From the IMG/VR virus record IMGVR_UViG_3300045988_059940, positions 32,001 through 96,000 of that record: 64,000 nt of DNA; one strand, written 5' to 3'. Below the pieces are notes generated by a model. The model searched no databases and was not told the origin of the DNA. It saw nothing but the letters and a program-made list of their open reading frames with translations. The stretch comes from a virus. The translations under genes were made by a program, and so were the position numbers. Shown in pieces: positions 12,485 through 64,000 of this stretch (position 1 is the stretch's first letter; each line of letters starts with the position of its first letter).

Positions 12485-12488
12485 ATCG

Positions 12489-14785: not shown

Positions 14786-14787
14786 AA

Positions 14788-15306: not shown

Positions 15307-15317
15307 ATTTAATTATA

Positions 15318-16547
15318 TTATGCTACTACTGTACCATTGGCGTCAACCCATTTGTTATCTTTACCAAACCAGAGCGGTTTATTCTTTACTGTATCAAAGA
15401 ACATTTGACCAAGTACTGGATTTGCTGGTCTAGTTGCAGCAGGAGTTTGTGGCAATACATCTTGTACTTTCCTACCATCAGCCAAATACATATCTCCGTT
15501 CACCCTAATATCTAATGCATTACTTCTTACTGTATCAGACTATCCATTACCTATTGTAAATAACGAAGACTATTTAGCTTGATTTGCATCTTTTACAATA
15601 GTACTATAAGAACCATCCCCAACTGTATTTGAAAACGCGCCGAATACAGCTGCATAATCTACATTAGATTTATTATTATTTCCAGTTATAAACTAAGCGT
15701 TTTTGTAAGACTTATTCTTTGCACCAGATATAAAAGACCCATTGGCGTTTGCGCCTATGTAGTTAGAAAATCCAAATGTTGCTGAATATTTTGTTTTTTC
15801 TGCAATATTCTATGTACCAACCGCAATACTATTTGTATAGTTTCCACGATTCTCACCAGCAAGTATTGAACATTTACCATCATTGCTAGTTGTAAACATA
15901 GAAATAATGCCAGGTTTTGTTAATCCGCATTCTATTGCATTTGTGATTATGACCTTATTGTCGGAATTAACATCAAATATTACTTTCTTTAATGTAGATT
16001 TTGAAAATTTTTCACCTTCTAGTTTTAATCCGTTGGCGTATTTTCCAACAATCATATATACATCGTAAGACTTTAAATATGTATATGACGAACTTGTACT
16101 ATCATACGCAGTGACCGCGATGTCACCATTTACAGACTTTATTTTAAATATATATGCATTTGCTATTATTAAATTCTGTTCACCTTTATTTAGAATGCCG
16201 AATCCGCAAAGTATAGATGTATTGCCCAAAGATGCAATATTATATCCAGAAATAATATCCGATGGACCAGAATATACATTGTGGTTTGACTTTATTGTAG
16301 TTAGTGTTATTGCTGTATTATTTATATTTTCTGTCTTATTGTCTGCGGAATAAGATGGCGATATAACACTATCTACTAATGAATTAGATGTTCCACCAAC
16401 AATATTTAAAGATTTTACTTCATTTGCATCCAATATTGTACCTGGTTCAAAACCATTTTTTATATCACCCAAAACTATCTATGGTGTAACGGCATACTTT
16501 AATCCTCCACCCTAAATAGTTGTACCATTTAATTTTACTGTTTCCAT
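15318..16547 (-). CDS. tail fibre protein (409 aa, 6 in-frame TAG)
   Basis: ATG at 16547 and TAA at 15318. Frame 0 was walked, with TAG at 16512, 16479, 15810, 15693, 15570 and 15540. The composition is Gly/Asn/Ser-rich and beta-like. The C-terminus GQMFFDTVKNKPLWFGKDNKWVDANG resembles fibre tip repeats. Confidence 0.55.
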
Positions 16548-19500: not shown

Positions 19501-21037
19501 TTCTTACACTATCTAACCTAGGACAGTTTTCAATAGCAATTTGTGTTAAGTTTACATTATTTGCTATTGTTAAATTAGTAAGATTTTTACAGTTTATAAT
19601 CTATACCTTTTGTAAGTTATTATAACCAGACAAGTCCAAAGATGTATAACCATCGCAATCTTCTATATAAACCGTCTATAAATTGTTACATCCTGTCAAG
19701 TCAATCTGTTTTAGATATGGTTGATGTCTCAAATCCAACTCATTTATGTTAGACCTTTGTATCTATAATGTTTTCAAAGGTACGTTGGTCGGTATGTATA
19801 TGTTTGTAATACATTTACTACCAGATATATTTATATCAGTAAGTTTAGTAAACTTTGTAAATGCGTGTGGAGTTTTGCTGTTTTGTTCTATATCTAAAAC
19901 AAATGTTTTCGTGGGGTCTAAGCACTGTGTATTAGAAAAGTCCATAGTTCTAATCTAAGACTGTATGTCTTTTCTAAATACATCTAATTTAAAGTCTGGG
20001 CTAAAATGTTTGTTGCCACTCAAATCTATTTCATATAATGCTGGGAATCCTAATGCATCTATTGTATTTTGTGCTTCTGTTGCAGCTAATATAGATACCT
20101 ACATACTTGATAACTTATTGTTAGCATTACCAAGCTTTATGAAGTTATTTGAATTAGTAATGTTCCAGTTATATGGACCACCATATTTAATGTTGCCAAC
20201 GTTTACAAACGTTTCTTTATTGTCCTATAAGAAATAGAAAGCGGTAACTGTATCGCCAATACTTATCTTTGATATTATTGGACAGTTTGTTGTTACTGGG
20301 AATACCTGTTGATTTGTACCCATTATACTGTTACCAGTAGATACATCTGCATTTGATTTAAATGTAATAGATTGCTGTTGCTTTGCAGTATCGCGCCACT
20401 TAAATAAGCTATCTAAGAATATAGTATGCTTCTTCAACCAATTTCTACTATGTGCAATCTTACGACCATGTAGCTTAGTCATATCTTTTGTATTACTAAT
20501 TTGGTCGTTAGTAAATTGTAATAGATATTTTAGCTTATAGTCATAATTAAATATCAACGAACCACAATCTGATGTTTGCTTATCAAAGTATTCATCAATG
20601 AAATAATTCGTAAATGTATCATATCCTTTTGACTTAGCTAAATCTTCTGTAAACTTTCTAAAATCATACCAATATTTTGTATATAGTGAATTTACATCTT
20701 CTCCAAATACTGCCCTACTAAACGATGTGTCTAATGACAACCACAGTTTGTTTGTATTTGCAGACACTGTTTTTCTAGATATAGCTTCGTCGAAATTAAA
20801 TGTTTCTGATACATACTACAATCCATTTTGTGCATTTGCAACAGTACCCTTGTTTGTTAGATACTTAATCCACACATCTGGTGTAATAGACAACTAACCT
20901 TGGTTATCACCGCTCATAGAACAGTCTAGGTCATAAAAGTCAGTAAGGTATTTGTTTCCATCCCAAGACCTATATGTTGAGTTCTTTCCAAAGTTATCAA
21001 CTAATCCAAAGAAGTTTGCAATGATGAAGTATTTCAT
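16535..21037 (-). CDS. very large tail/receptor-binding protein with leucine-rich-repeat (BspA-like) regions (1500 aa, 21 in-frame TAG)
   Basis: Seven track ORFs are all in frame 2. Every gap was walked codon by codon and contains TAG only. For example, 17084-17905 has 8 TAG and no TAA/TGA across 274 codons. ATG at 21037 and TAA at 16535. LRR-like periodicity is visible in 18.0-19.7 kb (..NLT.I.I.NC..L..V.., SIDLSSNSKLNYVTIDNC). Confidence 0.65.
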
Positions 21038-21115
21038 TGCACTTTCTACATTGAATCCTAGGTTCTCAGCACTTACTGCATTGGAATCAATTTCAATATC
21101 TTGTTTCTAACCAGT

Positions 21116-24100
21116 CTTATAATAGTTATTAAAGTTATCAACTGAGTATAAATCATAAGACCCTGCAATATAGTTTTTAGAAATCGTACCAATAGAGTCA
21201 CTACTATAACAGCGTTCTATTGGGAAGCGCATTATGTTCTTTACGAACTGTACAAATCCTGGGTAATCGCTAACCTATTTATTTGATGGGTATCTAACAT
21301 CAAACCTACGATTTAAGATTTCTCTATCACTTTGCCAGAAATCACCATTTGAAGTATTTATACCTTCTGGAAGTGTATCTTTTACATTTGCAAAATCACT
21401 TAGAGATACAGTATCTTTAATTTCTATCCAGTTTGCATTTTGTGTATCTTCCTCTACGTATTTTACTTTATCTTTATAGAATGGGAATGTAGTTACCTCA
21501 AATACATTATTACCTTCATCTACGATTTTATTTACTTTCTTAAATCCTAAGTTTCTATATGCGTTACGACCTAGGTTAAATGAATATATTCCAAGTGGCG
21601 TAGTAGATACTTTATTTTGCGCATCTGTGTAGAATTTCATTATTAAGAATACAGGGAAACCTTCTACTGTATGTTTAAGTGTAGCTGTCTTTTGCTGCTT
21701 CTTAACATAATCAGACTCATATACATTGTCTACTGCTTTTTTATCGAATGGGAAATATTCAGATGTACCAATTCTACCAAGTGCACTATTTATAAACGAA
21801 CCAATAGAAGCATTACTAGCATGAGAGCTGTCTACAACGTCAGCTTTAAGTGTATATGTCTGTTCAGGAAACCATGTAGATTTTGGTACAAATGCTGTTG
21901 TGTCAGGTACAGTTATGTTTACGTTCTTAACTGCGTCTGCTAGCGTTGAAGTACCTTGTAATTCAATTGTGACACCGTTAATTGTTTTAATACTAGTGTC
22001 AATACCTGTCTTATCTTGTTTGTTTATTCCAACTGGGTCCCAGTATTGTATAACTTTATTTGTAGTAGCAGTTAGAGTTGTAGATGATGCTGATTGCTGT
22101 TTTACAAACTAATCAAATGTCCAAGATGAGTCGTTACTAACATCAATCAATACAATAGGTATGCCAATAAATGCAGCCTATTCTTGTATGCTTTTACTAT
22201 TTAATCTACCATTAGAATCTAGTAAGAAGTCTACATTATAGCCAGTATGCTCGTTGTATAGGTATGATTTAATACTACCATCAGATTTTCTTTCACAGAA
22301 GTTCTTTTTTAATTCTACCTATATTCTTGCATAGTTTGGAGTTCCATTTACATAATCAGTTGACACAATATTATTTATACTATCAACCATTATGTCGAAC
22401 TCATTAAGTGCATATGTATATATATTCATGTTATATATATCTACATCACACTTATTATATATTACAGACTTTCCATTCTTAATATATTGTCTAGCTCCTA
22501 AATATATAGTATCACCAAATACAATTGGAGTTGTTAGATTTCTAATAGCTGACAATACTCCGTCCAAATACACCTTGACTACATATGATACACTATCCAC
22601 ATATCCAGTTGCTATTTGTGTACGTGTCGTCTACTTCTTACACGTAATTGTAATATCATTTTCAGTACTATCTTCAAGCTATATTACATTTTCATTATTA
22701 ATATAAATGTTATGTACATCAATGGATATACCATTAATCATAGCTCCAAGATTCTAGTCTGCAACAGAAGTATTACCAGAGAATAATATTGTTCTCTCAT
22801 CATCTGGGTGATAGTCTGCTTTATAATGTATATGAATTGTAAATTCGTCACCGCTTGACGATATGATGTCATTAAACTTATATTTTCTAGATTCTAGTGA
22901 AATGTCATCAAATTTGGCATATGCACCATTACTAATCCTATAATACTATACAGCAGAATCTAAAATAGATACTCTTGACCTAATATTACTTTCCATTGTT
23001 CGCAACACAGAACCTATTTGGAATTGTGATTTATAGTTTGTATTTGTAAATTCAAACGTATCATCACCAACGTTCTATGCTCTGGCATGCAATGAGAATA
23101 TTCTGTTGTTTATAATATTAGATGTGTCTGATAAATATGTAACTGATGATTTTATAAACTTAATGTAATATGTCGTAGTTGCTGTCTTCTGTCCAGAAGT
23201 AACGGTCACCTTCAACGGTACTGTCTTATTTGCAACAGTCCACGGTTTATTATTTACAGATATATAATCACTAACCTACCTACCAAATACACCGTCAGCG
23301 TCTTGTCTAACAAGATTTCCATCTATTTCTATATTATACTTATAAGACGTGTACTGACTTACATATGCTGTAAATACAACATTAACAGAACCATCCATAC
23401 TAACCTCTGTTGGCTGTCCTTGTACTTTGCTCATTACAGCAGACGATATTAGAATTTCTGATGACACCACTGTCATTGTAGATTTAATCGTCTTCTTTAC
23501 AGATTGTGTTGTTTTGTTCTGTAAAGTACATTCTACAACATAACTATCTATGTAATCTTCTGTCTATCCTATCAAGTCACTAAGTACAATAGATTTTAAG
23601 AACTAGTCGGTTGTAGCAATTACTAAGTCATACTCTTTTGTAATTGTATGTAATCTACCTATGAGCTTAATTGTCAACTTGTAGTTACCGACAACACCTA
23701 CACTATAATACAACTTTAAAAAAGAAGTATTTAAGCTAGTTAGTGTACTTTGTATATCTTCACATGACATTTCTATGTTGTTGTCAATAATAACACCAGA
23801 CCACTGTGCAGAGCCGTATATACCCTTTTCGTCATCTTCATAAGATGCAGATATATTCAGCTTTCCAGTATGATTTGATAATTGACTTACAACAGTATCA
23901 TATGGTACAAACAGTATAGGATTTGACGCATTAGCTACTGAACTATATATCTATGTACTACCTATACGAGCTATTACATTCCACCCTTTATTGTATTTTA
24001 CACTTAAATCTGACAGCTTTATCTGTAAACCTCCCTAGTCCATTATTATTTGTGAACCAGTTGGTTTATCATTTACAGTAATAGTTGTATTTACTTCTGT

Positions 24101-24346
24101 ATCACCAGGTGTTGCTCCTCCACCTCCACTACCAGAGCCTCCACCTCCATGTAGTGCGAGCCATGATATATTTCCTTGTGCGACAGTTAAATCATCTTTT
24201 AATCTTTCCATCGCAGTATCAACAGAGATTATATTCTCTCCGTCTTTTAAGAACTTAGGGTTTGTTGTACCGATACCTTTTGCATCATTACTTGCTACAA
24301 TATCCCAAGTTCTTTTTGATTCATTATATTTCTTTATGTTATTCAT
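21116..24346 (-). CDS. large tail fibre/spike protein (1076 aa, 14 in-frame TAG)
   Basis: ATG at 24346. Frame 2 was walked across all gaps down to the TAA at 21116-21118. The N-terminus is MNNIKKYNESKRTWD... followed by a GGGGSGSGGGG linker. Confidence 0.6.
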
Positions 24347-24357
24347 TGTAAGAAAGA

Positions 24358-27300
24358 TTATAAGGTGATTGTATATTTGTCCTATGTGGTTATATTATAT
24401 GCAGATAAATCTTGCGGTAATGATTCTTTCAATGTCATTGCTACTGCTGATAGACTATCTAATTGTTTATTCATGTCATACTTTGCAGTATTCTTATCTT
24501 CATTCACCGTCCAAACACCTTTTATTTGTTTAGCTGTAATATCTATTTTACTATCTGACATTTCATACACTACATACATGGGGTAATGTTGCTTAACATT
24601 TTCCTTCGGTGTAACTTCACTAGTCTTAGCTTTAAAATATGCTAACAACCAAGGTATTTGATAATCTGGCCCAGACGGCTGTTCTTTGTTTGAAACTAAC
24701 TTCCAACCAGTTGCCTATGACATAACATATGTTGGTGCATTGATTTTATCTACTATTTCAAATCTTGCAAATTGTAACCAATCATTATTTATATCTGATG
24801 CCTTTGTTACCTAAATTACTGGTTTTCTAGAAACACCTTCTGTTACTTCGCCCATAAACTCAACGGCTGTATTTTGCCTGTTATTCTATATATAATCAGC
24901 TGGTGCATCATATATTGGTTTACTTATACTATAAGTATGTTTGTGACCACCAAATACTAATCGTATACCATACTTCTTAAACAATCTAGAAAACCTATAT
25001 GTACCATTGTTATTTAGTGTATTTAAGTGTGAACCACTACGTCCTTTTACACCATTCATGAAGTCCCAGGTTACGATTGTAAATGGCATTTCATGCATAT
25101 AACAAAGTGTATTTTTACAGTCAGTTGGATTCTCTACACCATAGTATATCTATAAATCTTTCTTTAACCAATCTTCAATTTTAGCGTTCATTGTTTTAGC
25201 AAAGGTAGCATCGCCAGAGTTTGTACTAATGTTCCAATCATCTGTATACACTTTACTAGTAGCTACCGCATTTTCTGAATTAATAGATATGAAATGGAAT
25301 TTCCCATAATTAAACGAATATGTAGAATACATTAAACATTTCTTCCCATTCCATGTTAATTCATATTCATTGTTTGGGTCTAGCTCAAATGTAAAGTATT
25401 TCAATACATTTACATGGTTATATTTAGATGTAACATCATCACCGTCTGTTAGTTGTGTAGCATTATGTCCACACAAGTCATTGTTACCAACAGTAAACAT
25501 TTCAGTTTTATCACCTAAGAACTCGTCTAGTGCTTGATAGTAATCTAACCATTCATTCTCCCTATTACCGTTCTAAGTAATATCTCCTGTATTTATCAAG
25601 AAGTCTGCGTCTTGTTGGTCTTGTGCTAACATCTTGGCCGATTTACGCCAAGCCTGGTAATCTATCCAACTGAACCCTTGTTGGTCAGTTTCTTGTACGA
25701 ATTTAAAAGTTGTTACCTCTGAGTTGTCTTTGACCGTTAACGTCTTAATTGTACTATAATATGACTCGTCAAAGTCTCTTCCTATGCGATATTCATATAC
25801 GCCAGCTTCAAACTATTCACTTAATACTACCTTATGAGTAGTAACCATTGTACCGCGTACCGTCTTCCAGCGTAATCTTTCATAATGGTCTATGAACTTA
25901 TTTATAACAGCTGAGTTAGAAGAATCATCTCTTGTTATAGAATATTGTTTCTTCCATTCAGTTTGTCCTTTTTTACGATATTCTATAAACTCATCGTAAT
26001 ATCCGACAGATACCCAATTGAAGCATCTAGAAGCCTTTTTGTGATTTGCTGTATCGGAAGTGGCTTGAATACCAAATGTACACCTTATGCAGTTTGGTTT
26101 ATTCTTATTGAACTCTGTTTTATCTGTAAAGAAGTTTTTACCCTCCCATGATGCTTTTGGTGTATATTTCTCTTTCATCTCATCTAGATAGTAATACTGT
26201 ATACTATTACCTATCTTTGTAGTTTGACGTTTAAGATTTACATATATCCATAAGCTTGTAGACTTTCTAGCACCATATGCTTTATTACCCTATTTGGCTG
26301 GTTCTAACATAAACCTACGTATAAATAGCGCATCATTCCAAGAATCTCCTGGCTCTAATAAGAATGTAGTTCCACCTTCACTTAACGAGCCTACACCAAA
26401 TCCACAGCTATCTATATATCCTTTATTTACCTTTTGTTTATTCCAAGGTGAAGCTAACTCTCCAACAGCATATAGATTACCATTGGAATCGTACACCCAG
26501 TTATCTGTTGGACTACCAACACACAAATAGAAGCTAGAACAAGTTTGGCTAAACTTTATTAGTTCACCATTTGAGAACCACTCTTGGTCATATGTATTAA
26601 CATCAATGAATTGAGAGTTATAATCATTACATTTAGCTCCTCGTATTAAATATGTAGAGCCTGCTTTTATTACACCACTTAGCGGTAATGTGTGCCACTT
26701 GTATCCGTTTGTACCTCCACCATATGGTGTACCATCTGTATAGAGTAGATATATACCATTTAAGTTAATATCTTCTGTTGAACCATTTGCAAGCTCTACA
26801 AAGTTGTGTGAACACATACAGTCTTCTGAACCTTGTCCACCGCAATATACTTCATTTATACAGAGTAGATGATTTATAAATACACCCCAAGACCCATCTG
26901 GGTTACCTATACCAGTTGGAGTTTGTATATTCTTATGTATCATAAACTCGCCAGACTTACTTACTTCTACTTTGTATGTAGATTCACCGTCTGTAAAGTT
27001 TAGATACCTTAGTTTCGTAGCATATAAATCTTCTACACTAATTCCACCACCAGAACCTCCTGAGCCACCATCTGTTGTGCCTACAAGATTGAACTTCCCA
27101 TCTTTATATAGAACTAAACGTTTTTTATCTGTATAGAATAGTATTTCACCGTCTATTAGGTTTTGTCTATTCTTATTGAAATTAGCTACTGTATCCATCT
27201 TTATAGATACATGATTTACAGTAGGTTCTATTCCTTCTGTATTAGGTTTATCTTTAACTATACCTGGAATATCTTTTGATTCCTTTGGTTTAAGAGGGTC

Positions 27301-28029
27301 TGCTGAACGCATGATAATTTCCCTAGCACTAGAATGTGCATCACCAGCTACTACACCGTTGAGTATTATTTTATTTACAACACTCATGTTTTTGTATATT
27401 TCAGCGAGTGCTGCTTTTATCTTCTTTAACTCATCAGCATCATTCTATGTTAGATTTGTAGTATCACGAGTGTCTATCCACAACTTGCTTTTATCCTCTG
27501 GTGCAATTTGTCCAACATATATCTACGAACTTGATATTTCTGATAAACCTGTTGATAACAGACGATATAATACGCCTGTTGTTTTATTATATATTATTTT
27601 TGTAGATGCTTCTTTGTAATCATCAGATGACCCATAATTATCAGTGGATGCCCACTGTGCATATGCAAAACCTGCCTTTATTGCTAGGAATTTTTTATGT
27701 GCGTCACTGTATACTATTTTATCGTAAGTATTTGCTACGTTTACATCATCGATAGTATATATTGTCGTATCTATTGAATCTATTGTTAATACGTCAGACT
27801 TACGACCATTCTGCTTTATTTTTTTTAATATTTCATCAATGTTTATATCTGGCTATTGTGCCTATAAACGCTCTACAATACGTTTAATGGAGTTGGCATC
27901 AAATATATCCCCATCTTCAAACTAATGGTTATTGATATATTCGCCACGCTATAACATGATTACTTTTGGAGTCCTAGGTATATCTATGTTATCAATAATC
28001 CTAGTACCAAATAGTTTTGTTTTTTTCAT
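24358..28029 (-). CDS. large multidomain tail-associated protein with a lamin-tail-like domain and a metallophosphoesterase domain (1223 aa, 14 in-frame TAG)
   Basis: ATG at 28029 and TAA at 24358. Frame 1 was walked across all gaps. A GGSGGSGGG linker is present. HNFVELANGSTEDINLNGIYLLY is LTD-like. The phosphoesterase motifs are GDIT-TAG-NG, GNNDL and FGGHKHTYS. Confidence 0.6.
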
Positions 28030-28705: not shown

Positions 28706-28731
28706 GTATTATTTTATATTAATTTATATAG

Positions 28732-28819
28732 ACGCCCCAGTAGGAGTCGAACCTACCCTGTCACCTTCAGAAGATACGCGGTTTTAGAGACCGCCAGTGC
28801 CACCGTACACCATAGGGCG
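28732..28819 (-). tRNA. amber suppressor tRNA, anticodon CUA, class II (long variable arm), 88 nt
   Basis: Manual fold: acceptor CGCCCUA/UGGGGCG; anticodon stem GCGGU/ACCGC with loop C-U-CUA-A-A; variable arm of about 20 nt with a 5-bp stem; T arm GUAGG-UUCGACU-CCUAC. No CCA is encoded. The base after the acceptor stem is U. Confidence 0.8.
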
Positions 28820-38358: not shown

Positions 38359-38709
38359 ATGAAAAGATTTATCAAAAGTCTCATATTGCTCCTCATTGGG
38401 GCAGTACTTGGCATCATTACACACATAGTAGTGATGTCGTCATGGGGTTATAAAATGCTTACCCCATTAGAAATGGCGAACTTTAACACTCTTCCTTATA
38501 AAGTAGAGGCGTTGAAAGCCTACAATGCCTACTATAACGCAGTAGAAAATCTGCTAGACTCCACAAATCTAGCCGAAGATGATACTATGTTAGAAACCGA
38601 CGCGGGTTCAAACTATTTGAACAAAAAATGGCGCGTTGATTCTCTAACCAATCTTGAAAAAGATGAGCTAGCTCCTTATAAACCTATAAAACAGTGTTTC
38701 AATGAATAA
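38359..38709 (+). CDS. membrane-anchored hypothetical protein
   Basis: The N-terminal TM segment is LILLLIGAVLGIITHIVVM. Confidence 0.5.
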   Translation: MKRFIKSLILLLIGAVLGIITHIVVMSSWGYKMLTPLEMANFNTLPYKVEALKAYNAYYNAVENLLDSTNLAEDDTMLETDAGSNYLNKKWRVDSLTNLEKDELAPYKPIKQCFNE

Positions 38710-38944: not shown

Positions 38945-39001
38945 GGATTTATTTTTACCATATAAAATTTGAAAGATTGGAGACAGATATTAAAAACCTT
39001 A

Positions 39002-39034
39002 ATACCACGATTCGTGAGAACCGTGGTATTTTTA
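39002..39034 (+). terminator. rho-independent terminator
   Basis: ATACCACG-12 nt-CGTGGTAT followed by TTTTT. Confidence 0.7.
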
Positions 39035-39042
39035 AAGCATTA

Positions 39043-39225
39043 CCTAATCCAGCCACACCACAGTGACAGTCCTAAGCCTGTTAAATGGAGAAGGGGTAAT
39101 TGTAAACAACTCTAAATTGAATATGGGTAATGAGCCTACGCCCCGTTTAGATAGTTTACAGCTCACCTAACGAGCAGCTCACTCAAAGTATATGTGGAAT
39201 ACTGAGAGTAAAAGAGGCGGCCGAT
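39043..39225 (+). repeat. copy 1 of a roughly 180-nt duplicated non-coding element
   Basis: It shares three ordered blocks with 39603-39770: TAATCCAGCCA..., GTCCTAAGCCTG...GGAGAAGGGGTAA, and ...TGTGGAATACTGAGAGTAAAAG. Confidence 0.55.
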
Positions 39226-39349
39226 AACCAAATCCGAGTTTATATATTTAGAAAAGCTTTATCAGCAAAACGAACATTATTGTGCACAATAATGTTTATG
39301 TGTAGTTTAGTCCAACAATATGTTTCTGCTCTGGAAGTTTTTACACATT

Positions 39350-39422
39350 TCTCCCTTAGCTCAATCTAGTCAGAGCATCATAGGTATTATGAAAGATTCT
39401 GGTGCAAATCCAGAAGGGAGAA
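39350..39422 (+). ncRNA. tRNA-like element (73 nt) with a non-canonical anticodon loop
   Basis: The acceptor is UCUCCCU/AGGGAGA, the D arm is GCUC/GAGC and the T arm is UCUGG-UGCAAAU-CCAGA. The anticodon arm UCAUA-GGUAU-UAUGA has only a 5-nt loop, or a 7-nt loop AGGUAUU lacking U33. Confidence 0.45.
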
Positions 39423-39463
39423 CGAACGACGTTTTTAAATTTTGCATAAGAAAAAGGATTATG

Positions 39464-39595
39464 TTTCGCTAAGTAACCTGTGAAGGCGAAAGAAATAGGA
39501 ATTGATACGAAATTTCGCTGAGTAATCTGCAAAGATGAAAAGATTACGGAATTTGGAAAGCGTAAATCTGTGAAGACAAGCGCTTTTGTTTTTAC
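39464..39595 (+). ncRNA. three tandem hairpins with a conserved loop sequence plus a terminator-like end (candidate small RNA)
   Basis: The three hairpins are TTTCGC-TAAGTAACCTGTGAAG-GCGAAA, TTTCGCTGAGTAATCTGCAAAG... and AAGCG-TAAATCTGTGAAGACA-AGCGCTTTTGTTTTT. Confidence 0.45.
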
Positions 39596-39602
39596 GTTTA
39601 TC

Positions 39603-39770
39603 TTAATCTAGCCAGTCCCAATGTCGGTCCTAAGCCCGAAATGCGTTCATTACGTATAATAGAGAAGGGGGTAAACGCACACCAAAAATGGCGTAATTAA
39701 CCAAGGTGTGTCTCTCAGTCCAGACGTAAGAGAGTAATCCGCTCATAGTGGGAATATGAGTGAAAAAATA
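39603..39770 (+). repeat. copy 2 of the duplicated non-coding element
   Basis: The blocks TAATCTAGCCA..., GTCCTAAGCCCG...AGAGAAGGGGGTAA and ...AGTGGGAATATGAGTGAAAAAA occur in the same order as in copy 1. Confidence 0.55.
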
Positions 39771-39908
39771 CAATTAAGTAAGTAGTTGTAGAAAGAATTA
39801 AAATAAGTGCTTACTCACAAAACCGAAAATAATGTGTTTGGGTTTATCGTAGCGCGCAAAGAAGCGGATTTCAGAACACATAATCGTCATAGGTATTATG
39901 ACAATCTT

Positions 39909-40001
39909 TCTCTCTTAGTTTAAATAATAAAACATCTATAAGATAGGAAATATTGAAACACCTATTAATAGAAGATATTGGCGTAAATCCAATAGAGAGA
40001 A
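39909..40001 (+). ncRNA. tRNA-like element with an expanded anticodon region (93 nt)
   Basis: The acceptor is UCUCUCU/AGAGAGA, the D arm is GUUU/AAAC and the T arm is AUUGG-CGUAAAU-CCAAU. About 40 nt lie where the 17-nt anticodon arm should be. It is preceded at 39886-39903 by the hairpin GTCATAGGTATTATGAC, the same hairpin that forms the anticodon arm of 39350-39422. Confidence 0.4.
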
Positions 40002-40510
40002 CTATTTTATTCAAATATAGCAGTAACTATTATACCAAAAACTTAATAACTTTCCAAGTCATTGAGGACACCAGTTTCTTACACCCAGTAAGTTTTAGGT
40101 GTAAAATGCAATTCAAGACACTAATCACGTCTAGAATCCATCTTTGTTTGAATTGATTACTCAAACGGAGAAATACCCGTAAAACGGAGCTCAACTACAA
40201 AATACGCTCGTAGTTGCTGAGTATAGGTAGAATTGTGTTTAGTAATTGAGTACGAGGATACGAAGTTACGTGACACTCTGGAAAGACAGAGAGTATGCTT
40301 AATTGCGCAAGTAAGTATACTAGCACTATCGTATAACATATAGATTACGCTCCGTGCTGTCGGAGAAATGTAGGCTTATTACCTACTAGTGCACTAATTG
40401 TTGTCAGCCCCTGTGTGAATAATAGTAACACTTATAGGAACTGTCTGGTGTGGTCACGAAAGTGGCAATTTAATCATAGCTTAATTAAATCCTGCTATGG
40501 GGTAAATATT

Positions 40511-40966
40511 ATGGCAATTAAATGTTTTAAACATGAAAACAATTCTAAGGCTTACATTGACAGTAAACACATCTGCTATGTAAGAGAATGGTCAGACGGA
40601 GAAACAGAAATAGCCACAGTAGATGGAGGTTCAACCTATGTGAAACAAAGTGTAGAGTCTGTTGTAAGTTGGTGGAAGAAACAACAAGAAACGGACGTAA
40701 AAGAGCCTAAGTTCAAAGAGGTTGACGATGTTTATACAATTAGCTTGGCTAACATAAACAATAGAAGGTATCACGTTGTGGAGGCGCTCAAAGAAGTGCT
40801 TAACTTTCACTTAGATGAAAAAAGAAGTTTAGGTGAAAGCAGCAGACTAACCGTACTTATAACAAGAAACAAAGTAGAAGCTATGGAGGTATGGGCAAAA
40901 CTAAAAGCAAGATTGTTCTGTGTCGGTGTCAATGTAATTCTTGAAATAGATTCAGTAAGAGAATAG
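40511..40966 (+). CDS. protein with a ribosomal protein L7/L12 C-terminal-domain-like region (weaker copy)
   Basis: VYTISLANINNRRYHVVEALKEVLNFHLDEKRSL...NKVEAMEVWAKLKA...VNVILE follows the bL12 CTD pattern. The likely start is MAIKCFKHEN at 40511. The gene ends in TAG, with a TAA 5 codons later. Confidence 0.45.
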   Translation: MAIKCFKHENNSKAYIDSKHICYVREWSDGETEIATVDGGSTYVKQSVESVVSWWKKQQETDVKEPKFKEVDDVYTISLANINNRRYHVVEALKEVLNFHLDEKRSLGESSRLTVLITRNKVEAMEVWAKLKARLFCVGVNVILEIDSVRE

Positions 40967-41155: not shown

Positions 41156-41428
41156 TTGAAAAAACCTGTAAAAGTTTATAAAGTTCGATTGGTACACGTA
41201 CTCGGCGACAGACTTAGAGCAATAAAAGCGGTTAAAGAAATACTTAATCTCTGCTTAGCAGACGCAAAAGATTATTGCAGAATTGAAGAGTCAAACAAAA
41301 CTGAATCAATAGTTGTATGTACAACAACAAATAAAGAAGAGGCCTTGAAAACATGGTCAAAGTTTAAAGAAGAACTAAAAGACACCAACGTTAAAGTAGA
41401 TTTCAATGAGTACACATCAGAACAATAA
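41156..41428 (+). CDS. ribosomal protein L7/L12 C-terminal-domain-like protein
   Basis: YKVRLVHVLGDRLRAIKAVKEILNLCLADAKDYC...NKEEALKTWSKFKEELKDTNVKVDF aligns by eye with E. coli bL12 [34 protein letters not shown]...[22 protein letters not shown]. The start codon is uncertain: TTG at 41156, with no in-frame ATG upstream. Confidence 0.6.
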   Translation: MKKPVKVYKVRLVHVLGDRLRAIKAVKEILNLCLADAKDYCRIEESNKTESIVVCTTTNKEEALKTWSKFKEELKDTNVKVDFNEYTSEQ

Positions 41429-44485: not shown

Positions 44486-44719
44486 ATGAAAAAATTATTT
44501 GGCAAAGGCCTAACATTCTTATACGGAAATATACTGCTGGTAATGGCTGTAATTCCGTTGGTAGAGTTAATTACAAAACCGCAACTTATGACGGGATTTA
44601 GTACATTGGCTCTAAGTTTAAACTTGATAATATTAATAATATTAATGTTGTCAGGCTGTGTAATAGTTTATTTTGGTTGGTACCGCATAGTGGAAGAAGA
44701 CCAGACTGAAAAAGACTAA
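44486..44719 (+). CDS. small two-TM membrane protein
   Basis: The hydrophobic segments are LLVMAVIPLVELI and LIILIILMLSGCVIVYFGW. Confidence 0.5.
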   Translation: MKKLFGKGLTFLYGNILLVMAVIPLVELITKPQLMTGFSTLALSLNLIILIILMLSGCVIVYFGWYRIVEEDQTEKD

Positions 44720-44935
44720 AAATCAAGAGGGGTGGAATCAATCCATCCCTCTACAAAAGACTTTTAATGTGGCCAAAGACAGTTGCAAGCCTGTAAACAC
44801 AGAGCAAAAAGTCCATTTTACTTATTTAATTCAATTTTAAATGTTTAACGTTATTATCTTTAATAAGCAAACAGAATGCCAGTATTAGCGAATACTTTTG
44901 AAGTATAGTGCTTGTGAAAGTATTATACTTTTTAT

Positions 44936-45022
44936 GCCTCCATGTTGTAACTAGGTAGCCAAGGTAGACTTAAAATCTACTGAACAGTAATGTTCGTATG
45001 GGTTCGAATCCCATTGGAGGTA
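44936..45022 (+). tRNA. tRNA-Leu (UAA), class II
   Basis: The anticodon stem GUAGA/UCUAC closes the loop CUUAAAA. A long variable arm is present. The T arm is AUGGG-UUCGAAU-CCCAU and the acceptor is GCCUCCA/UGGAGGU. Confidence 0.8.
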
Positions 45023-45095
45023 CTACGGTTTTTCCAAGTTTCCATAAAACTGGATATTAAATATTTAATAAAAACTTTCAAAAATTATCAAAATT

Positions 45096-46576: not shown

Positions 46577-47018
46577 CACCTGGTGATGTACAAAAATCAG
46601 TATTCAAAATCGAGAGTCTTAGAACCAGTGATTAGCAGAGGAGGAAGGGAATTAGTTTAACGTTGGACGGATGTTAGTGTATAGAACACCTCGTCTGGTG
46701 AATTAACACCAGCTACAAGAGCCTTTGAGCCAGTAGGAATACGAACTTCTGAAAATACGGAAGTAAAACTATATTAGTATCAAAAATACGTTGCATCTGA
46801 GCCAGAGAGCCGAACAAAAAGGTTTAGAGAAACATAATGATGTTCGTGCAATATATCAAGAGATACGCGTGTCGTAACAAGAACCATTGAGTCAGTTTAC
46901 ATAAACACGTATATTTACCTGTTTAATTGCGTTCTAAGCAATCATAACGTATTGGATGGATTAGCTACCCAGAAGGTATAATATATGCGCTTAAAACAAA
47001 AAAGAATAGGGTCTTTTT

Positions 47019-47050
47019 AGTACGTAGAGAAGGCCTATCTACGTACTTTT
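47019..47050 (+). terminator. terminator-like hairpin abutting tRNA-Arg
   Basis: AGTACGTAGA-9 nt-TCTACGTACT followed by TTT. Confidence 0.55.
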
Positions 47051-50982: not shown

Positions 50983-50989
50983 TAGTAAG

Positions 50990-53220
50990 ACGATTTAGGT
51001 CTCATTAGCCAATAATCGCTCAAACATCAAAAAATTTACTTGGTCCGAGAATATGTTAACCTTCTCAAAAGGCAAGATGTCCGAAAAAGTGTGGACTATC
51101 AAAAGGTAGGACGAAAGACAAGATTGGTGTGAAAAGCCAACTTGTATAGGGGATAGTGACGCATCAAAACCCCTACACGTGTATAAACCAGTTGCAGTCC
51201 TTTATGCTGAACTAGGATAATCTTATCGTGGTGTACACGTAAGGAACAGCACATAAATCACGGCCTTGAAAAATAGATAACCGTGTAAAAGTTGATGCCG
51301 TATCGTAGACAATGCTTTTAGATACAAATTGTATTGTAACGTAACACGAGTTGAATTTATCAATTAGTCAGGACTATAAAGAGGCGCTCTTGTAGTCTTA
51401 TAGGGGATGGATGTGGATGGTAGTGATGATGAGGTCCAACTCTCATTGATAAAGTATCAGTAAGTCGAGCATAGTGTTCATGAGGTCCAAAGTCATTATG
51501 AAGGTGCGAAAAAATATGTGGAGTAAAACAATATCGTGAGGATAATGCTCACGGGGTGTACCGTAACTATGCCGCCTATGTAAGGCCAGTTCCGTGCAAC
51601 TCGGATGCCTCTCGTCACGCGCGTAGGGGAGTAAGTGGGTAAAACGGCTGATTTATGGTGATGCATGACCGCCAGGCTTTTGTTGTTTATGCGGGATATA
51701 AAAGTGAAACAACCAGGAGAGTGGGGCAGACTCTTAATGCGAAGTAGGGCTAACAAGCTTGAAGGCTACGCGAAACGAGTGCGCGGACAAACACTGATTT
51801 AATATGAATATACCTGGCTAGACGAGGTGAAGATGTAAGTTATTCATATAAGATAGATAGAACTAAAAAGCTACTATCCACTACGATGACAACGTTACAG
51901 TCAAAAAATGTACGCTTGCATACAATCAAGCCGAACCAAATTAGGTTTATCGGTTCCAATGCCATATTGCCAATGGTAGTGAAGACCCATTAACCTTTGA
52001 TGTAATAAATAATCAAGGTGTATCACTATTATAATAATATCATTATATCTCTATTGGAGTAATTAAACCAGTATATATGATGTGCATTATGATATATACA
52101 AACAAACCAGAGATGAAATAAAAACATCACAAATGAGAGTAAATAACATGTTTAACAAAAATAGGTGTCCCCCGATAGGTGCCACTTTCGTTGTAAGAAA
52201 GAGCTGAGTCGGAAGCCTGAGTGCCAACCGTGACTTTGAAAAAATTATACAGAATAAACTATACAATTTCCGTCTAAGTTTGAACCGCCGAACGTGAATA
52301 CATTAATAGGTAACCGTGGACGGTAATTGAAGTAGGACAGCAAATCTTTATAGATTTATAGAGTAGTTATCCATTAATTGATGGGCAGCAACAACCTAAG
52401 TACGTCCTTGCAATAAGGATAGGGAGTTAGTGACTCATTGGTGTACACTGTCTATGTACATTGATAGGGAATGTTGTGGGTGACAAGAAGCGTGGGTAGG
52501 GTTGAAATCCCAAGTATTCGAGCACTTCTCAATGAAAAGCGAGATAAAACAAATGAGGAAGCAAAATCCAAGAGAAGAAACAGCCGTAGCATCCGAGATA
52601 CCCCTTGAAGGCTAGATGGTCCGATAATGAAACGTCGCTATTACGTTATAGTATAGCTGAGAGAGGCCTGGTCGCCACCTCGAATAAGAATTGAAAGCAC
52701 CAGCAACTGAGAAAACTGCAAACAACGATATGACCGATAGTCTTGAAAAAGACAATGTCGCCATACTTTCGGTGTCGTATACTGACAATGGCAAAAGCAC
52801 TACGGGTTAGTGTGGAGAGAATTTTTATTAAGTAAGTAACAATTTTTTCAAAACAATTTTCGTGGGTTAAACTTATAAACAGGGTGTAATGCATTCTGTA
52901 TGAGTTTTTTATTTAAGAATTTAAATTACAAAATACAAGCACTTGAATGTGCATTTTCGGCATTTGAAGTTTCAAGTAAACAAATTTAGGCTAAGCTAAT
53001 CCTACCATTGGATTCCCTTGTATTTGACTTCCATACTACTTGTAGATAGGATATATAATACATGTTTGTTGAAATAGTAAACGACCTCTCATTAGCACGG
53101 TTAAACCGAATCTTATTTTAAACTGAGTGTCGGTGCGTCGAGCCACCGAGCCTGCACCAATTTTTAATTCCGACTAGCGTTTACGTTAGTTAATCAATAA
53201 CAATTTCAAAAAGGTAAACA
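50990..53220. ncRNA. 2.2-kb ORF-free, GC-richer, apparently structured non-coding block
   Basis: All three stop codons are frequent in all six frames. The only track ORFs are short ones on the strand opposite the flanking rightward genes. Many local hairpins and G/C-rich complementary words are visible. See findings. Confidence 0.5.
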
Positions 53221-53223
53221 AAA

Positions 53224-56316: not shown

Positions 56317-56580
56317 ACAACAAGGATGGGTAAATATACGCTGGTAATGGTCTACATCAGCCTTAAAGTACACGTGAAACCTAAGTAGCGATACGTAACA
56401 ATTCTTTAAGTAAACTTATCATAAACTTATAGATACGTAAAGTGAATTGACCATCGAATGATTAGCGTGTGAAGCAAGTACAAGTTCCGTAATAAGTACG
56501 GTAGGCAAGTTCTATGTACTGTTTTGCTAGATGCTTATGAAAGTATATTTGTTGTTTGGCTCTTCGACGGAAGAGCATTT

Positions 56581-57532: not shown

Positions 57533-57555
57533 CATAATTACAACAATAGGCCTGC

Positions 57556-57643
57556 GGTTCCATATGTCAGAAGATTGGTAAACTGACCAGTAATTTTACT
57601 GAACGATATATCGTTATAGCGAGTTCGATTCTTTCTGGAACTG
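57556..57643 (+). ncRNA. degenerate class II tRNA-like element
   Basis: The acceptor is GGUUCCA/UGGAACU and the D arm is UCAG/CUGA with GG in its loop. The variable-arm hairpin is AACGAU-AU-AUCGUU. The T loop is UUCGAUU with an imperfect stem. The anticodon hairpin CAGUA-AUUU-UACUG has only a 4-6 nt loop. Confidence 0.35.
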
Positions 57644-57739
57644 AGACTGTGCCGAACGTGATGTAACTGCAAAAACTACGTAGAGTAGAAAGGCTATCAC
57701 GGTTGTTGTAATTACCTTATAATTTAGACTCTTGAAGCA

Positions 57740-62977: not shown

Positions 62978-63012
62978 AACTATCCAGTTAAGGGTTCTGT
63001 AAAAACCCATAA

Positions 63013-63107
63013 GACACGAATGTGGAACTACAAAAAGTTGATTAATCATAGGTTCTTATTTATTGTTGTATTGTAGTTGAGGGGTTCGATTCCCCTCCGT
63101 GTCACCA
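63013..63107 (+). ncRNA. tRNA-like element with an encoded CCA and an expanded anticodon arm (95 nt)
   Basis: The acceptor is GACACG(A)/(C)CGUGUC, the T arm is AGGGG-UUCGAUU-CCCCU and the 3' end is ACCA. The stem CUACAA/UUGUAG encloses about 37 nt where the anticodon loop should be. Confidence 0.4.
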
Positions 63108-63638: not shown

Positions 63639-64000
63639 CAACATGCAGTCTGGTGTAATTAACCCAAGTTAGAATGTGTACAATTCGATGCGGGTGGAGT
63701 ATGAAAAGAAAATAAGTAGAAGTAGAAAAACTCGCGAATAAGTATATTTTAAAAGTTTTCAAAGTAATATCTTGCAGACCATCTATGAGGATGGAGGTTG
63801 GAGATAACAAGTTTATCTACTGCATTATGGGGGTATATGGCTTTGATTTTAGACGGAAGATATGTAAGCATGTAGAGCTTGTAACAGCTCTTAAATATAG
63901 TTACAATAAAATTAACCGACAACGTTATTTTGTCAATTGCAGCTTAATTGAATAATAGTAAATTTGGCGCACATTACACAGAACCACTCAAAGTAACTGT

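What the first reader, a model, noticed from the sequence alone, without database searches (positions are those of the whole stretch)
38950..40410. 1.5-kb non-coding island with a duplicated roughly 180-nt element, each copy followed by a tRNA-like gene
Seen in sequence: there is no credible ORF in this stretch. The track's 39953-40156 and 40157-40339 are low-complexity leftovers.

The order of elements is:
1. terminator (39002-39034)
2. element copy 1 (39043-39225)
3. tRNA-like 1 (39350-39422)
4. triple-hairpin unit (39464-39595)
5. element copy 2 (39603-39770)
6. hairpin GTCATAGGTATTATGAC (39886-39903)
7. tRNA-like 2 (39909-40001)
8. a further 400 nt of structured-looking sequence containing CGGAGAAAT twice, near 40166 and 40361

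The two element copies share three blocks in the same order: TAATCYAGCCA, GTCCTAAGCCYG...GAGAAGGGG(G)TAA and TGGGAATAYTGAGWGWAAAA.

The hairpin core TCATAGGTATTATGA occurs twice. In one case it forms the anticodon arm of tRNA-like 1. In the other it sits just 5' of tRNA-like 2.

Inference: this is a modular RNA locus that arose by duplication. Its function is unknown.
Basis: seen in the sequence. Interest (0 to 1): 0.7.

Follow-up and report, generated by a model that had tools for sequence, protein, structure and literature searches.

The report
Twister-ribozyme plus tRNA-like RNA cassettes
The "duplicated element" is a pair of twister self-cleaving ribozymes in a crAss-like gut phage, each preceded by a hairpin and followed about 300 nt later by a tRNA-shaped RNA that cannot decode; the ribozyme class is known, but I found no description of this repeated cassette layout.

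Summary
The first 58-73 nt of each "180-nt element" is a type-P1 twister ribozyme (39041-39098 and 39600-39672). Both score below Rfam's cut-off. All helices are intact, and the T1 pseudoknot covaries (CCU:AGG here, UGC:GCA in a third twister at 44759-44813).

The third shared block is not significantly similar. Both tRNA-like elements fold as cloverleaves, with 7 compensatory pair changes between them. Their anticodon and T loops rule out decoding.

The true repeat unit is a roughly 400-nt cassette: hairpin, twister, about 300 nt of RNA, then the tRNA-like element. The distance from cleavage site to tRNA-like 5' end is 304 nt in both copies.

Downstream lie an invariant 74-nt crAss-phage motif that is not in Rfam, and RAGATH-12 (89 bits) abutting an ORF start. 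Relatives lack cassette 2, or tRNA-like 2 alone, so the modules are gained and lost as units.

Most likely mechanism (inferred): twister cleavage at the 5' side and RNase P cleavage at the tRNA-like element cut one transcript into defined small RNAs. What those RNAs do is unknown. This is a new variant of a known kind and is moderately interesting.

The parts
39001..39033 (+). Stem-loop followed by a U-run, 7 nt upstream of twister 1. It is either a terminator or a protective 3' hairpin.
   Evidence: Minimum free energy -14.3 kcal/mol, z -5.3. The stem covaries in L003 and L005. The scan flags it as terminator-like on the minus strand.
39041..39098 (+). Twister ribozyme 1 (type P1). Predicted cleavage is between U39045 and A39046.
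   Evidence: RF03160 scores 46.2 bits, E 1.3e-8, against a cut-off of 67.2. P2 covaries in L005 (UCCA/UGGA to ACUA/UAGU) and P3 covaries in L003 (CAC/GUG to CAU/AUG).
39099..39349 (+). Extension 1. The first 80 nt are variable. A conserved block follows at about 39185-39272, then a 12-bp palindromic hairpin at 39273-39296 and a closing stem AUGUGUA/UACACAU that ends 1 nt before tRNA-like 1.
   Evidence: Conservation pattern in A2. Fold (z -1.7). No Rfam match.
39350..39422 (+). tRNA-like 1. It is a full cloverleaf, but with a 15-nt anticodon arm (G33, U37), T-loop UGCAAAU and no G18.
   Evidence: Fold. ARAGORN finds it only at relaxed thresholds. No Rfam tRNA hit at E<=10. Differences from three relatives (L003, L005, L050) are one to three substitutions in loops plus, in L003 and L005, a 1-nt deletion next to the anticodon stem, while flanks diverge 15-50%. 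CM R1 scores 105 bits.
39464..39595 (+). Unit with three copies of the motif AAYCUGYRAAG. It ends in a hairpin at 39556-39587 followed by a U-run, about 12 nt upstream of twister 2.
   Evidence: Repeats D2 and D18. Hairpin at -10.7 kcal/mol. One compensatory change in L005. The consensus fold has little covariation.
39600..39672 (+). Twister ribozyme 2 (type P1, with a P5 hairpin insert and a weak P3). Predicted cleavage is between U39604 and A39605.
   Evidence: RF03160 scores 32.2 bits, E 1.4e-4. P1, P2, P4 and T1 are all paired. It is identical in L003.
39673..39885 (+). Extension 2. It contains a hairpin at 39740-39762 with loop GUGGGAA, and a stem AUGUGUU/AACACAU that is collinear with the closing stem of extension 1.
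   Evidence: Folds (hairpin z -2.95). About 99% identical to L003.
39886..39902 (+). Hairpin GUCAUAGGUAUUAUGAC. Its 15-nt core is identical to the anticodon arm of tRNA-like 1.
   Evidence: (D7). The L003 deletion begins inside it, at 39890.
39909..40001 (+). tRNA-like 2. It is a cloverleaf with an extended anticodon arm (5 bp, internal loop, 6 bp, 13-nt loop) and T-loop CGUAAAU.
   Evidence: Fold z -2.97. It has 7 compensatory pair changes relative to tRNA-like 1, with 80 of 80 cells paired. CM R1 scores 68.6 bits. It is absent from L003 and from L005-type relatives.
40037..40110 (+). 74-nt crAss-phage motif. Two invariant halves flank an apical insert of 7-84 nt. It is not in Rfam.
   Evidence: The exact 20-mer occurs in 14 IMG/VR contigs and the motif matches 16 GenBank crAss-phage records. 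The fold is identical in all variants. It is single-copy in the window. No Rfam hit.
40111..40398 (+). Lineage-specific structured spacer. Only 40322-40398 is shared with L005-type relatives.
   Evidence: Fold z -2.9.
40399..40504 (+). RAGATH-12 RNA. The Rfam model covers 40423-40504, and a conserved 5' extension runs from about 40399. It ends 6 nt before the ATG at 40511.
   Evidence: RF03149 scores 89 bits against a cut-off of 75. The extension is conserved in 28 other crAss loci. It sits in the same position, just ahead of an ORF, in L002 and L032.
44726..44813 (+). Lies outside the finding. An 11-bp hairpin at 44726-44752 is followed by twister 3 at 44759-44813 (cleavage between U44765 and A44766), 122 nt upstream of a genuine tRNA-Leu at 44936-45023.
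   Evidence: RF03160 scores 35.6 bits. T1 is UGC:GCA and P1 covaries in L005. Hairpin z -5.15. tRNA.

Best explanation
The island is a lineage-specific insert in the RNA-rich plus-strand gene block, presumed early, of a TAG-recoded crAss-like phage (nearest to Suoliviridae). It holds two tandem, paralogous self-processing RNA cassettes.

Each cassette reads: stable hairpin; type-P1 twister ribozyme; about 230-250 nt of structured RNA; then a tRNA-shaped element derived from a phage tRNA that can no longer decode.

Shown here:
- Twister identity, by sequence and structure.
- The cloverleaf folds, with covariation.
- The cassette layout and its gain and loss as units.

Inferred:
- The region is transcribed with the flanking plus-strand genes.
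- Each twister cuts at its own 5' edge (39045|39046 and 39604|39605). This releases the upstream RNA with a hairpin-protected end carrying a 2',3'-cyclic phosphate. The downstream RNA is left with a 5'-OH buried in the ribozyme fold.
- Host RNase P, with a 3' tRNA-processing nuclease, cuts at the tRNA-like elements.

The predicted products are two RNAs of about 304 nt (39046-39349 and 39605-39908), two free tRNA-like RNAs, an RNA of about 180 nt carrying the triple motif, and an mRNA for ORF 40511. That mRNA would have a long 5' leader containing the 74-nt motif and RAGATH-12. What the released RNAs do in trans is unknown.
For: TWISTER
- There are three RF03160 matches in the window.
- Most nucleotides that the Rfam consensus shows as highly conserved are present (UAA, GCC, the P4-loop motif with C5 changed to U, GA). 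P4 differs in sequence but stays paired.
- All 14 pairs of P1, P2, P4 and T1 stay paired through compensatory changes across 7 twisters plus the consensus (112 of 112 cells).
- The only deviation in a conserved position (GUCCCAAGCC to GUCCUAAGCC) is matched by GGG to AGG in its pseudoknot partner.

HAIRPIN BEFORE THE TWISTER
- This arrangement is seen at all 3 window twisters, and in L006 and the unrelated phages L017 and L018.

tRNA-LIKE ELEMENTS
- Both adopt cloverleaf folds at the minimum free energy.
- Seven compensatory pairs separate the two paralogues.
- tRNA-like 1 is nearly unchanged in relatives whose flanks diverge 15-50%.
- The nearest other CM hits are genuine crAss-phage tRNA-Ile and tRNA-Arg.

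PARALLEL WITH A REAL tRNA
- The same layout (ORF, hairpin, twister, spacer) precedes a genuine tRNA-Leu at 44726-45023, and this is conserved in L005.

CASSETTE GEOMETRY
- The distance from cleavage site to tRNA-like 5' end is 304 and 304 nt in the window, 303 in L003 and 297 in L005.
- Both predicted 3' ends lie just after a stem.

The literature already suggests that bacterial and phage twisters process polycistronic transcripts (PMC6765202).
Against: - There are no expression or cleavage data.
- All three twisters score below Rfam's gathering threshold.
- Twister 1 follows a terminator-like hairpin with a U-run, so it is transcribed only if polymerase reads through.
- The tRNA-like T-loops lack U55, and tRNA-like 2 also lacks U54. 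The D-loops lack G18, and tRNA-like 2 has no G19 either. RNase P recognition is therefore assumed, not shown.
- Cassette 2 is absent from L005-type relatives and tRNA-like 2 is absent from L003, so these parts are dispensable.
- The two extensions are barely similar. If they are functional RNAs, they may not share a function.
- Few independent homologues exist (4 variants of cassette 1, 2 of twister 2, 1 of tRNA-like 2).
Confidence: 0.5

Rival explanations
1. The twisters only form mRNA 3' ends or insulate transcripts. They cut upstream messages free behind a protective hairpin. Everything downstream, including the tRNA-like elements and extensions, is decaying remnant of a former tRNA cluster and has no function of its own.
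For: The tRNA-like elements resemble crAss-phage tRNA-Ile and tRNA-Arg but have lost decoding features. Cassette 2 or tRNA-like 2 is missing in relatives. The hairpin-then-twister arrangement also occurs where an ORF follows directly (L017, L018).
Against: tRNA-like 1 differs from three relatives by only one to three substitutions, all in loops, plus a 1-nt deletion next to the anticodon stem in two of them, while neighbouring sequence diverges up to 50%. All 20 stem pairs are kept in both paralogues through 7 double changes. Blocks of extension 1 and the triple-motif unit are also strongly conserved. The spacing of about 300 nt is kept.
Confidence: 0.2
2. The tRNA-like RNAs are the functional products. 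They act in trans as tRNA mimics, for example as decoys for host tRNA-targeting defence nucleases or tRNA-binding enzymes. The twister and extension merely deliver them.
For: The L-shape determinants look preserved. The 19-56 tertiary pair appears to covary (G-C in tRNA-like 1, A-U in tRNA-like 2; read by eye). The hairpin UCAUAGGUAUUAUGA is kept identical in two different placements, as a protein-binding module would be. Phages are known to carry tRNAs that counter anticodon nucleases (my own knowledge).
Against: No defence-related or anti-defence protein is detectable nearby; flanking ORFs have no PHROG or Pfam assignment. The anticodon loops, which are the usual nuclease target, are the least tRNA-like part. 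There is only one lineage and no experimental link.
Confidence: 0.12
3. The two tandem twisters excise a 559-nt unit (39046-39604) with 5'-OH and 2',3'-cyclic-phosphate ends. Host RtcB ligates these ends into a circular RNA, as in viroid-like or retrozyme RNAs.
For: The window and L003 each carry two same-strand twisters about 550-560 nt apart. Those end chemistries are RtcB substrates (general knowledge; PMC6765202 on ligation after ribozyme cleavage).
Against: L005-type relatives keep cassette 1 with a single twister, so circularisation cannot be the conserved role. The intervening tRNA-like element would be cut by RNase P.
Confidence: 0.06
4. The features act at the DNA level (origin, recombination or packaging sites), or the similarity is due to chance.
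For: Module boundaries coincide with recombination junctions. The halves of the 74-nt motif are invariant, as a protein-binding DNA site would be.
Against: CM matches have E values down to 1e-8, and compensatory changes are strand-specific RNA signatures. The GC-skew switch is at about 31 kb, not here. All elements are on the transcribed strand.
Confidence: 0.04

Closest known systems
Twister ribozyme, type P1 (Rfam RF03160; Roth et al. 2014)
   Same: Same order of P1, UAA, P2, GCC, (P3), P4 loop GUCCNAAGCC, (P5), AAA, P2', GA, T1 and P1'. Optional P3 and P5 stems. Phage and intergenic context.
   Different: T1 is CCU:AGG or UGC:GCA instead of CCC:GGG. P3 is short or missing. Scores are 32-46 bits, below the 67.2 cut-off. 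Each is preceded by a hairpin and followed by a tRNA or tRNA-like element.
RAGATH-12 RNA (Rfam RF03149; from the Weinberg et al. 2015 screen of regions near twister and hammerhead ribozymes)
   Same: Full-length match above threshold, lying close to twisters as the family name implies.
   Different: Here, and in 28 other crAss loci, conservation starts about 25 nt upstream of the Rfam model, and the motif ends 6 nt before a start codon. In most relatives RAGATH-15, not a twister cassette, lies upstream.
Theta (minimal HDV-like) ribozymes next to tRNAs in recoded gut phages (PMC10879173)
   Same: A small self-cleaving ribozyme paired with tRNA genes in a TAG-recoded gut phage, with a proposed role in RNA end formation.
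   Different: Different ribozyme class. [quoted passage not shown] These twisters sit 122-304 nt upstream, and in two of three cases the partner is a non-decoding tRNA mimic.
tRNA-like processing signals: MALAT1/mascRNA, MHV68 tRNA-miRNA transcripts, mitochondrial tRNA punctuation, and T4 stable RNAs in the tRNA cluster (my own knowledge)
   Same: A cloverleaf that does not decode, embedded in a longer transcript, whose likely use is to recruit RNase P or RNase Z and so define the ends of neighbouring RNAs.
   Different: No sequence relationship. Here the other end of the released RNA would be set by a cis ribozyme. Processing is untested.
Canonical tRNA (RF00005)
   Same: 7-bp acceptor, U8/A9, 4-bp D stem, 5-bp T stem with a 7-nt loop, and a 4-5-nt variable loop. 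Resembles crAss-phage tRNA-Ile and tRNA-Arg.
   Different: The anticodon arm is 15 nt (or extended to 38 nt). G33, U37, G55, no G18, U1-A72. Not found by ARAGORN at default settings or by Rfam.

Membership tests
Twister ribozyme type P1 (RF03160) | Helices P1, P2 and P4 in the consensus order, with open ends at P1 | tested here: met
   cmscan alignments cover model positions 1-68 for all three copies. Hand-extracted stems are 100% paired.
Twister ribozyme type P1 (RF03160) | Highly conserved nucleotides: UAA at the cleavage site, the GCC junction, P4 loop GUCCCAAGCC, the A-rich linker, and GA before T1 | tested here: met
   All are present in twisters 1 and 2 except C5 to U in the loop, which is compensated. 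Twister 3 has GUUGCAAGCC, also compensated.
Twister ribozyme type P1 (RF03160) | T1 pseudoknot between the P4 loop and the 3' strand of the P1/P2 internal loop | tested here: met
   The pairs are CCU:AGG, UGC:GCA, UAC:GUA and consensus CCC:GGG. All 3 positions are compensatory.
Twister ribozyme type P1 (RF03160) | T2 pseudoknot (junction GC with loop GC; pairing recalled from crystal structures) | tested here: inconclusive
   The nucleotides are present but invariant, so covariation cannot be assessed.
Twister ribozyme type P1 (RF03160) | Score at or above Rfam's gathering threshold (67.2 bits) | tested here: not met
   46.2, 32.2 and 35.6 bits. The losses come from a missing P3, a P5 insert and the variant T1.
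Twister ribozyme type P1 (RF03160) | Site-specific self-cleavage | not testable with these tools
   Needs in vitro transcription and cleavage mapping.
tRNA (RF00005) | Cloverleaf with acceptor, D, anticodon and T arms | tested here: met
   Minimum-free-energy folds and 80 of 80 stem cells paired.
tRNA (RF00005) | 5-bp anticodon stem and 7-nt loop with U33 and a purine at position 37 | tested here: not met
   tRNA-like 1 has a 15-nt arm, with loop GGUAU or AGGUAUU (G33, U37). tRNA-like 2 has a 38-nt arm.
tRNA (RF00005) | T-loop U54-U55-C56 and D-loop G18-G19 | tested here: not met
   The T-loops are UGCAAAU and CGUAAAU. The D-loops are AAUCUAGUCA and AAAUAAUA.
tRNA (RF00005) | Detected by standard tRNA finders | tested here: not met
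   ARAGORN at default settings finds neither. There is no RF00005 hit at E<=10. tRNA-like 1 appears only at -ps80.
RAGATH-12 (RF03149) | Full-length match above the gathering threshold (75 bits) | tested here: met
   89 bits, model positions 1-78.
tRNA-like RNase P processing signal (mascRNA type) | Cleavage by RNase P at the 5' end of the mimic, which releases the upstream RNA | not testable with these tools
   Only the acceptor/T-arm geometry and the stem that ends just upstream are seen.

The most novel reading that the evidence does not exclude
Hairpin, twister, about 300 nt of RNA and a tRNA mimic together form a portable, self-delimiting non-coding RNA gene. Its 5' end is set by a cis ribozyme and its 3' end by a domesticated tRNA that recruits RNase P. 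It spreads between crAss-like phages by recombination: there is a 99%-identical block against an 85% background, and whole-cassette indels. The released 304-nt RNAs and/or the tRNA mimics would act in trans on the host, for example as decoys for tRNA-directed defences. In addition, the adjacent invariant 74-nt motif would be an undescribed structured RNA class of Crassvirales.
Probability: 0.25. Interest if true: 0.75.

Novelty: new variant of a known kind. Interest (0 to 1): 0.55.

Why it matters
The biological role of bacterial and phage twister ribozymes is still open (PMC6765202). This locus offers an unusually readable context.
- Three twisters in one phage each sit directly behind a hairpin and ahead of a tRNA or a tRNA mimic. 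This points to ribozyme-assisted punctuation of transcripts, and it can be tested directly with end-specific RNA-seq.
- It shows tRNA genes being converted into conserved non-decoding cloverleaves in the most abundant human-gut phage order.
- It flags an invariant 74-nt motif that no Rfam family covers.
- It shows that Rfam's twister-P1 cut-off misses covariation-supported variants.

Tried and rejected
- The search for related loci with the ORF 40511 protein returned nothing.
- The look-up of encoding contigs returned only the window's own source contig, which is 100% identical, so it added no variation for tRNA-like 2.
- One metagenome scan with the T-arm pattern gave only close relatives plus a CRISPR array.
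- The CM of the tRNA-like elements found no further family members in 430 kb of crAss loci, only genuine tRNAs.
- MAFFT could not align tRNA-like 2 or the twisters in structural register, so I extracted the stems by hand and counted pairs in a script.
- Long-range pairing of GGAGAAAU with the tRNA-like-1 leader was rejected because there is no covariation in L050.
- The 74-nt motif as a repeated promoter was rejected because it is single-copy in 64 kb. It is not hatchet, pistol, hammerhead or twister-sister, since Rfam gives no hit at E<=10.
- Coding potential under TAG or TGA read-through was rejected.
- Origin of replication was rejected because the skew switch is at about 31 kb.
- The original twister and RAGATH papers are not held. 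Statements about crystal-structure pairings therefore rest on memory.
Full report
WHAT THE REGION IS
The window is a crAss-like phage. The island's conserved pieces hit Crassvirales genomes. The nearest GenBank genome is a Bohxovirus (Suoliviridae) at about 76% identity. The source contig is a 102.7-kb ENA assembly that is identical over 7.3 kb.

Genes on the minus strand up to about 31 kb are TAG-recoded. Reading through TAG gives ORFs of 2615 and 1046 codons, against 384 at most in the standard code. A tRNA with a CUA anticodon sits at 28731-28819. The island lies in the plus-strand block of small genes of unknown function.

It has no coding potential in any of the three codes tested. Relatives differ by frame-breaking indels.

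THE 'DUPLICATED ELEMENT' IS A PAIR OF TWISTER RIBOZYMES
A permissive Rfam scan matches type-P1 twister (RF03160) end to end at two sites: 39041-39098 (46.2 bits, E 1.3e-8) and 39600-39672 (32.2 bits, E 1.4e-4). A whole-window scan adds a third at 44761-44810 (35.6 bits). All three are below the 67.2-bit gathering score, which is why the default scan missed them.

The fold is nevertheless well supported.
- P2 changes from UCCA/UGGA to ACUA/UAGU in L005.
- P3 changes from CAC/GUG to CAU/AUG in L003.
- Over seven distinct twisters plus the Rfam consensus, all 14 pairs of P1, P2, P4 and the T1 pseudoknot show compensatory changes, and 112 of 112 cells are paired (stems extracted by hand).
- The one departure from a conserved nucleotide (loop GUCCCAAGCC to GUCCUAAGCC) is matched by GGG to AGG in its pseudoknot partner. 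Twister 3 has UGC:GCA and L006 has UAC:GUA.
- Two unrelated high-GC phages carry the same CCU:AGG variant.

The predicted cleavage sites are U39045|A39046, U39604|A39605 and U44765|A44766.

WHAT IS NOT DUPLICATED
Beyond the twister, the two copies are not significantly similar. Local alignment scores 19, against 18.1 +/- 2.4 for shuffles. Global alignment gives z of about 2.

Block 3 lies in a hairpin loop of similar sequence in both copies (AUGUGGA and GUGGGAA). Both extensions also end in a collinear stem, AUGUGUA/UACACAU versus AUGUGUU/AACACAU. Ancient homology of the whole cassette is therefore plausible but weak.

The 9-mer CGGAGAAAT repeat is at chance level.

THE tRNA-LIKE ELEMENTS
Both fold as cloverleaves at the minimum free energy (z -2.75 and -2.97). 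Between them, 7 of 20 stem pairs differ on both sides and none is broken.

tRNA-like 1 differs from three relatives (L003, L005, L050) by one to three substitutions in loops plus, in L003 and L005, a 1-nt deletion next to the anticodon stem, while neighbouring sequence is only 50-85% identical.

They are not decoding tRNAs.
- The anticodon arm is 15 nt with G33 and U37. L050 breaks the closing pair, which suggests a 4-bp stem and a 7-nt loop.
- In tRNA-like 2 the arm is extended to 38 nt.
- The T-loops are UGCAAAU and CGUAAAU, and the D-loops lack G18.
- Neither ARAGORN at default settings nor Rfam detects them. ARAGORN sees tRNA-like 1 only at relaxed thresholds.

A CM built from them finds no other members in 430 kb of crAss loci. 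Its next-best hits are genuine crAss tRNA-Ile(GAU) and tRNA-Arg(UCU), and tRNA-like 2 shares the T stem of that tRNA-Ile. They therefore look like domesticated phage tRNAs.

The anticodon arm of tRNA-like 1 recurs as a free hairpin 6 nt upstream of tRNA-like 2.

THE REAL REPEAT UNIT AND ITS ARCHITECTURE
Each twister is immediately preceded by a stable hairpin, at 39001-39033, 39556-39587 and 44726-44752. The same holds in L006, L017 and L018.

Each twister is followed by a tRNA-like element, or in the case of twister 3 by a genuine tRNA-Leu 122 nt downstream. The distance from cleavage site to tRNA-like 5' end is 304 nt in both window cassettes, 303 in L003 and 297 in L005.

The cassettes behave as modules.
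- L005-type relatives and L050 lack 39593-40004, which is the whole of cassette 2.
- L003 and L049 keep twister 2 and its extension but lack 39890-40036, which contains tRNA-like 2.
- 39513-39889 is about 99% identical between the window and L003, against an 85% background. This indicates recent exchange.

DOWNSTREAM MODULES
40037-40110 is a 74-nt motif. Its two halves are invariant in 14 IMG/VR contigs and conserved at 88-100% in 16 GenBank crAss-phage records. The apex of its second hairpin carries inserts of 7-84 nt. It often lies 30-40 nt ahead of unrelated ORFs. It is single-copy here and matches no Rfam family. I could not identify it.

RAGATH-12 (89 bits) ends 6 nt before the ATG at 40511. 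Its conservation extends about 25 nt upstream of the Rfam model.

In other crAss phages the syntenic region reads: RAGATH-15, a small ORF with an ETDxGSNYL motif, RAGATH-12, tRNAs, then a permuted tmRNA. The window's ORF 38359-38709 is the homologue of that small ORF. The twister cassettes are therefore a lineage-specific insert between it and RAGATH-12.

MECHANISM
The RNA identities and their layout are shown here. The following steps are inferred.
- The plus strand is transcribed through the island.
- Each twister cuts at its 5' edge. The upstream RNA keeps a terminal hairpin and a 2',3'-cyclic phosphate. The downstream RNA starts with a 5'-OH inside the ribozyme fold.
- RNase P cuts at the tRNA mimics, whose upstream neighbour ends in a stem.

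This would yield two RNAs of about 304 nt, two tRNA mimics, an RNA of about 180 nt and a leadered mRNA. The idea that phage twisters process polycistronic transcripts is in the literature (PMC6765202). A different ribozyme class is known next to tRNAs in recoded gut phages (PMC10879173).

The rivals, with their tests, are listed in the Rival explanations section: tRNA remnants with no function, trans-acting tRNA decoys, and circular RNA from the tandem twisters.

VERDICT
The core is a known ribozyme class, which lowers the novelty. Three things appear to be undescribed in the sources I could search: the repeated hairpin-twister-RNA-tRNA-mimic cassette, the domesticated tRNA mimics, and the unassigned 74-nt motif. 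The finding is moderately interesting.

Noticed in passing
window 44726-45023: A third twister (44759-44813) lies directly behind an 11-bp hairpin that follows ORF 44486-44719, and 122 nt upstream of a genuine tRNA-Leu(UAA). The arrangement is conserved in L005, L012 and L047, with a compensatory change in P1.
   Followed up: yes
L048 11327-11356 (ERZ773067 NODE-1011), matching window 39393-39422: A metagenomic CRISPR array carries a 30-nt spacer that is 100% identical to the T-arm and acceptor 3' half of tRNA-like 1. The 47-nt repeat is GTTGTGATTTGCTTGAAAAATCGTACTTTTGCAGTATCACAAACATC, which looks like the long repeats of Bacteroidetes type II-C arrays (recalled from memory). This is a host link and shows that this locus is sampled by host immunity.
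   Followed up: partly
window 50983-53223: A 2.2-kb stretch has no ORF longer than about 105 codons in the standard, TAG-read-through or TGA-read-through code. It has higher GC (0.39-0.41) and is conserved at 72-84% nucleotide identity in related Suoliviridae genomes, where it is mostly unannotated. No Rfam hit. It may be a large non-coding RNA.
   Followed up: partly
window 12400-27500 (minus strand) and 28731-28819: The late genes are TAG-recoded (ORFs of 2615 and 1046 codons appear only with TAG read-through). A tRNA with a CUA anticodon, which ARAGORN calls 'Pyl', lies next to a tRNA-Met.
   Followed up: yes
window 40511-40966 and 41156-41428: The two ORFs downstream of RAGATH-12 weakly resemble the C-terminal domain of ribosomal protein L7/L12 (PF00542: 14.7 and 24.1 bits, cut-off 25.9).
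   Followed up: partly
window 40399-40422; L019-L046: RAGATH-12 conservation begins about 25 nt upstream of the Rfam model (UGUUGUCAGCCCCUGUGUGAAUAA). In 9 of the 14 other crAss loci scanned against Rfam, a RAGATH-15 RNA lies 0.5-0.9 kb upstream; in 13 of the 14 tRNAs lie downstream, and in 8 of the 14 a permuted tmRNA also lies downstream.
   Followed up: partly
window 62987-63107 and 63829-64000: Weak tmRNA matches (14.6 and 22.7 bits), the second cut by the window end. Related phages carry a permuted tmRNA at the syntenic place.
   Followed up: no
window 46577-47050 and 56317-56580: Long ORF-free leaders (470 and 260 nt) lie upstream of tRNA-Arg and tRNA-Ser. About 200 nt of unassigned sequence follows tRNA-Ser(GCU) at 57534-57739.
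   Followed up: no
window 39513-39889, matching L003 7063-7437: This block is about 99% identical between two phages that are about 85% identical elsewhere. This implies recent recombinational transfer of the twister-2 segment.
   Followed up: partly
L008 6881-6952: A crAss-phage tRNA that ARAGORN reports with a two-base 'anticodon' (tt), meaning an abnormal anticodon loop. It is another atypical phage tRNA.
   Followed up: no
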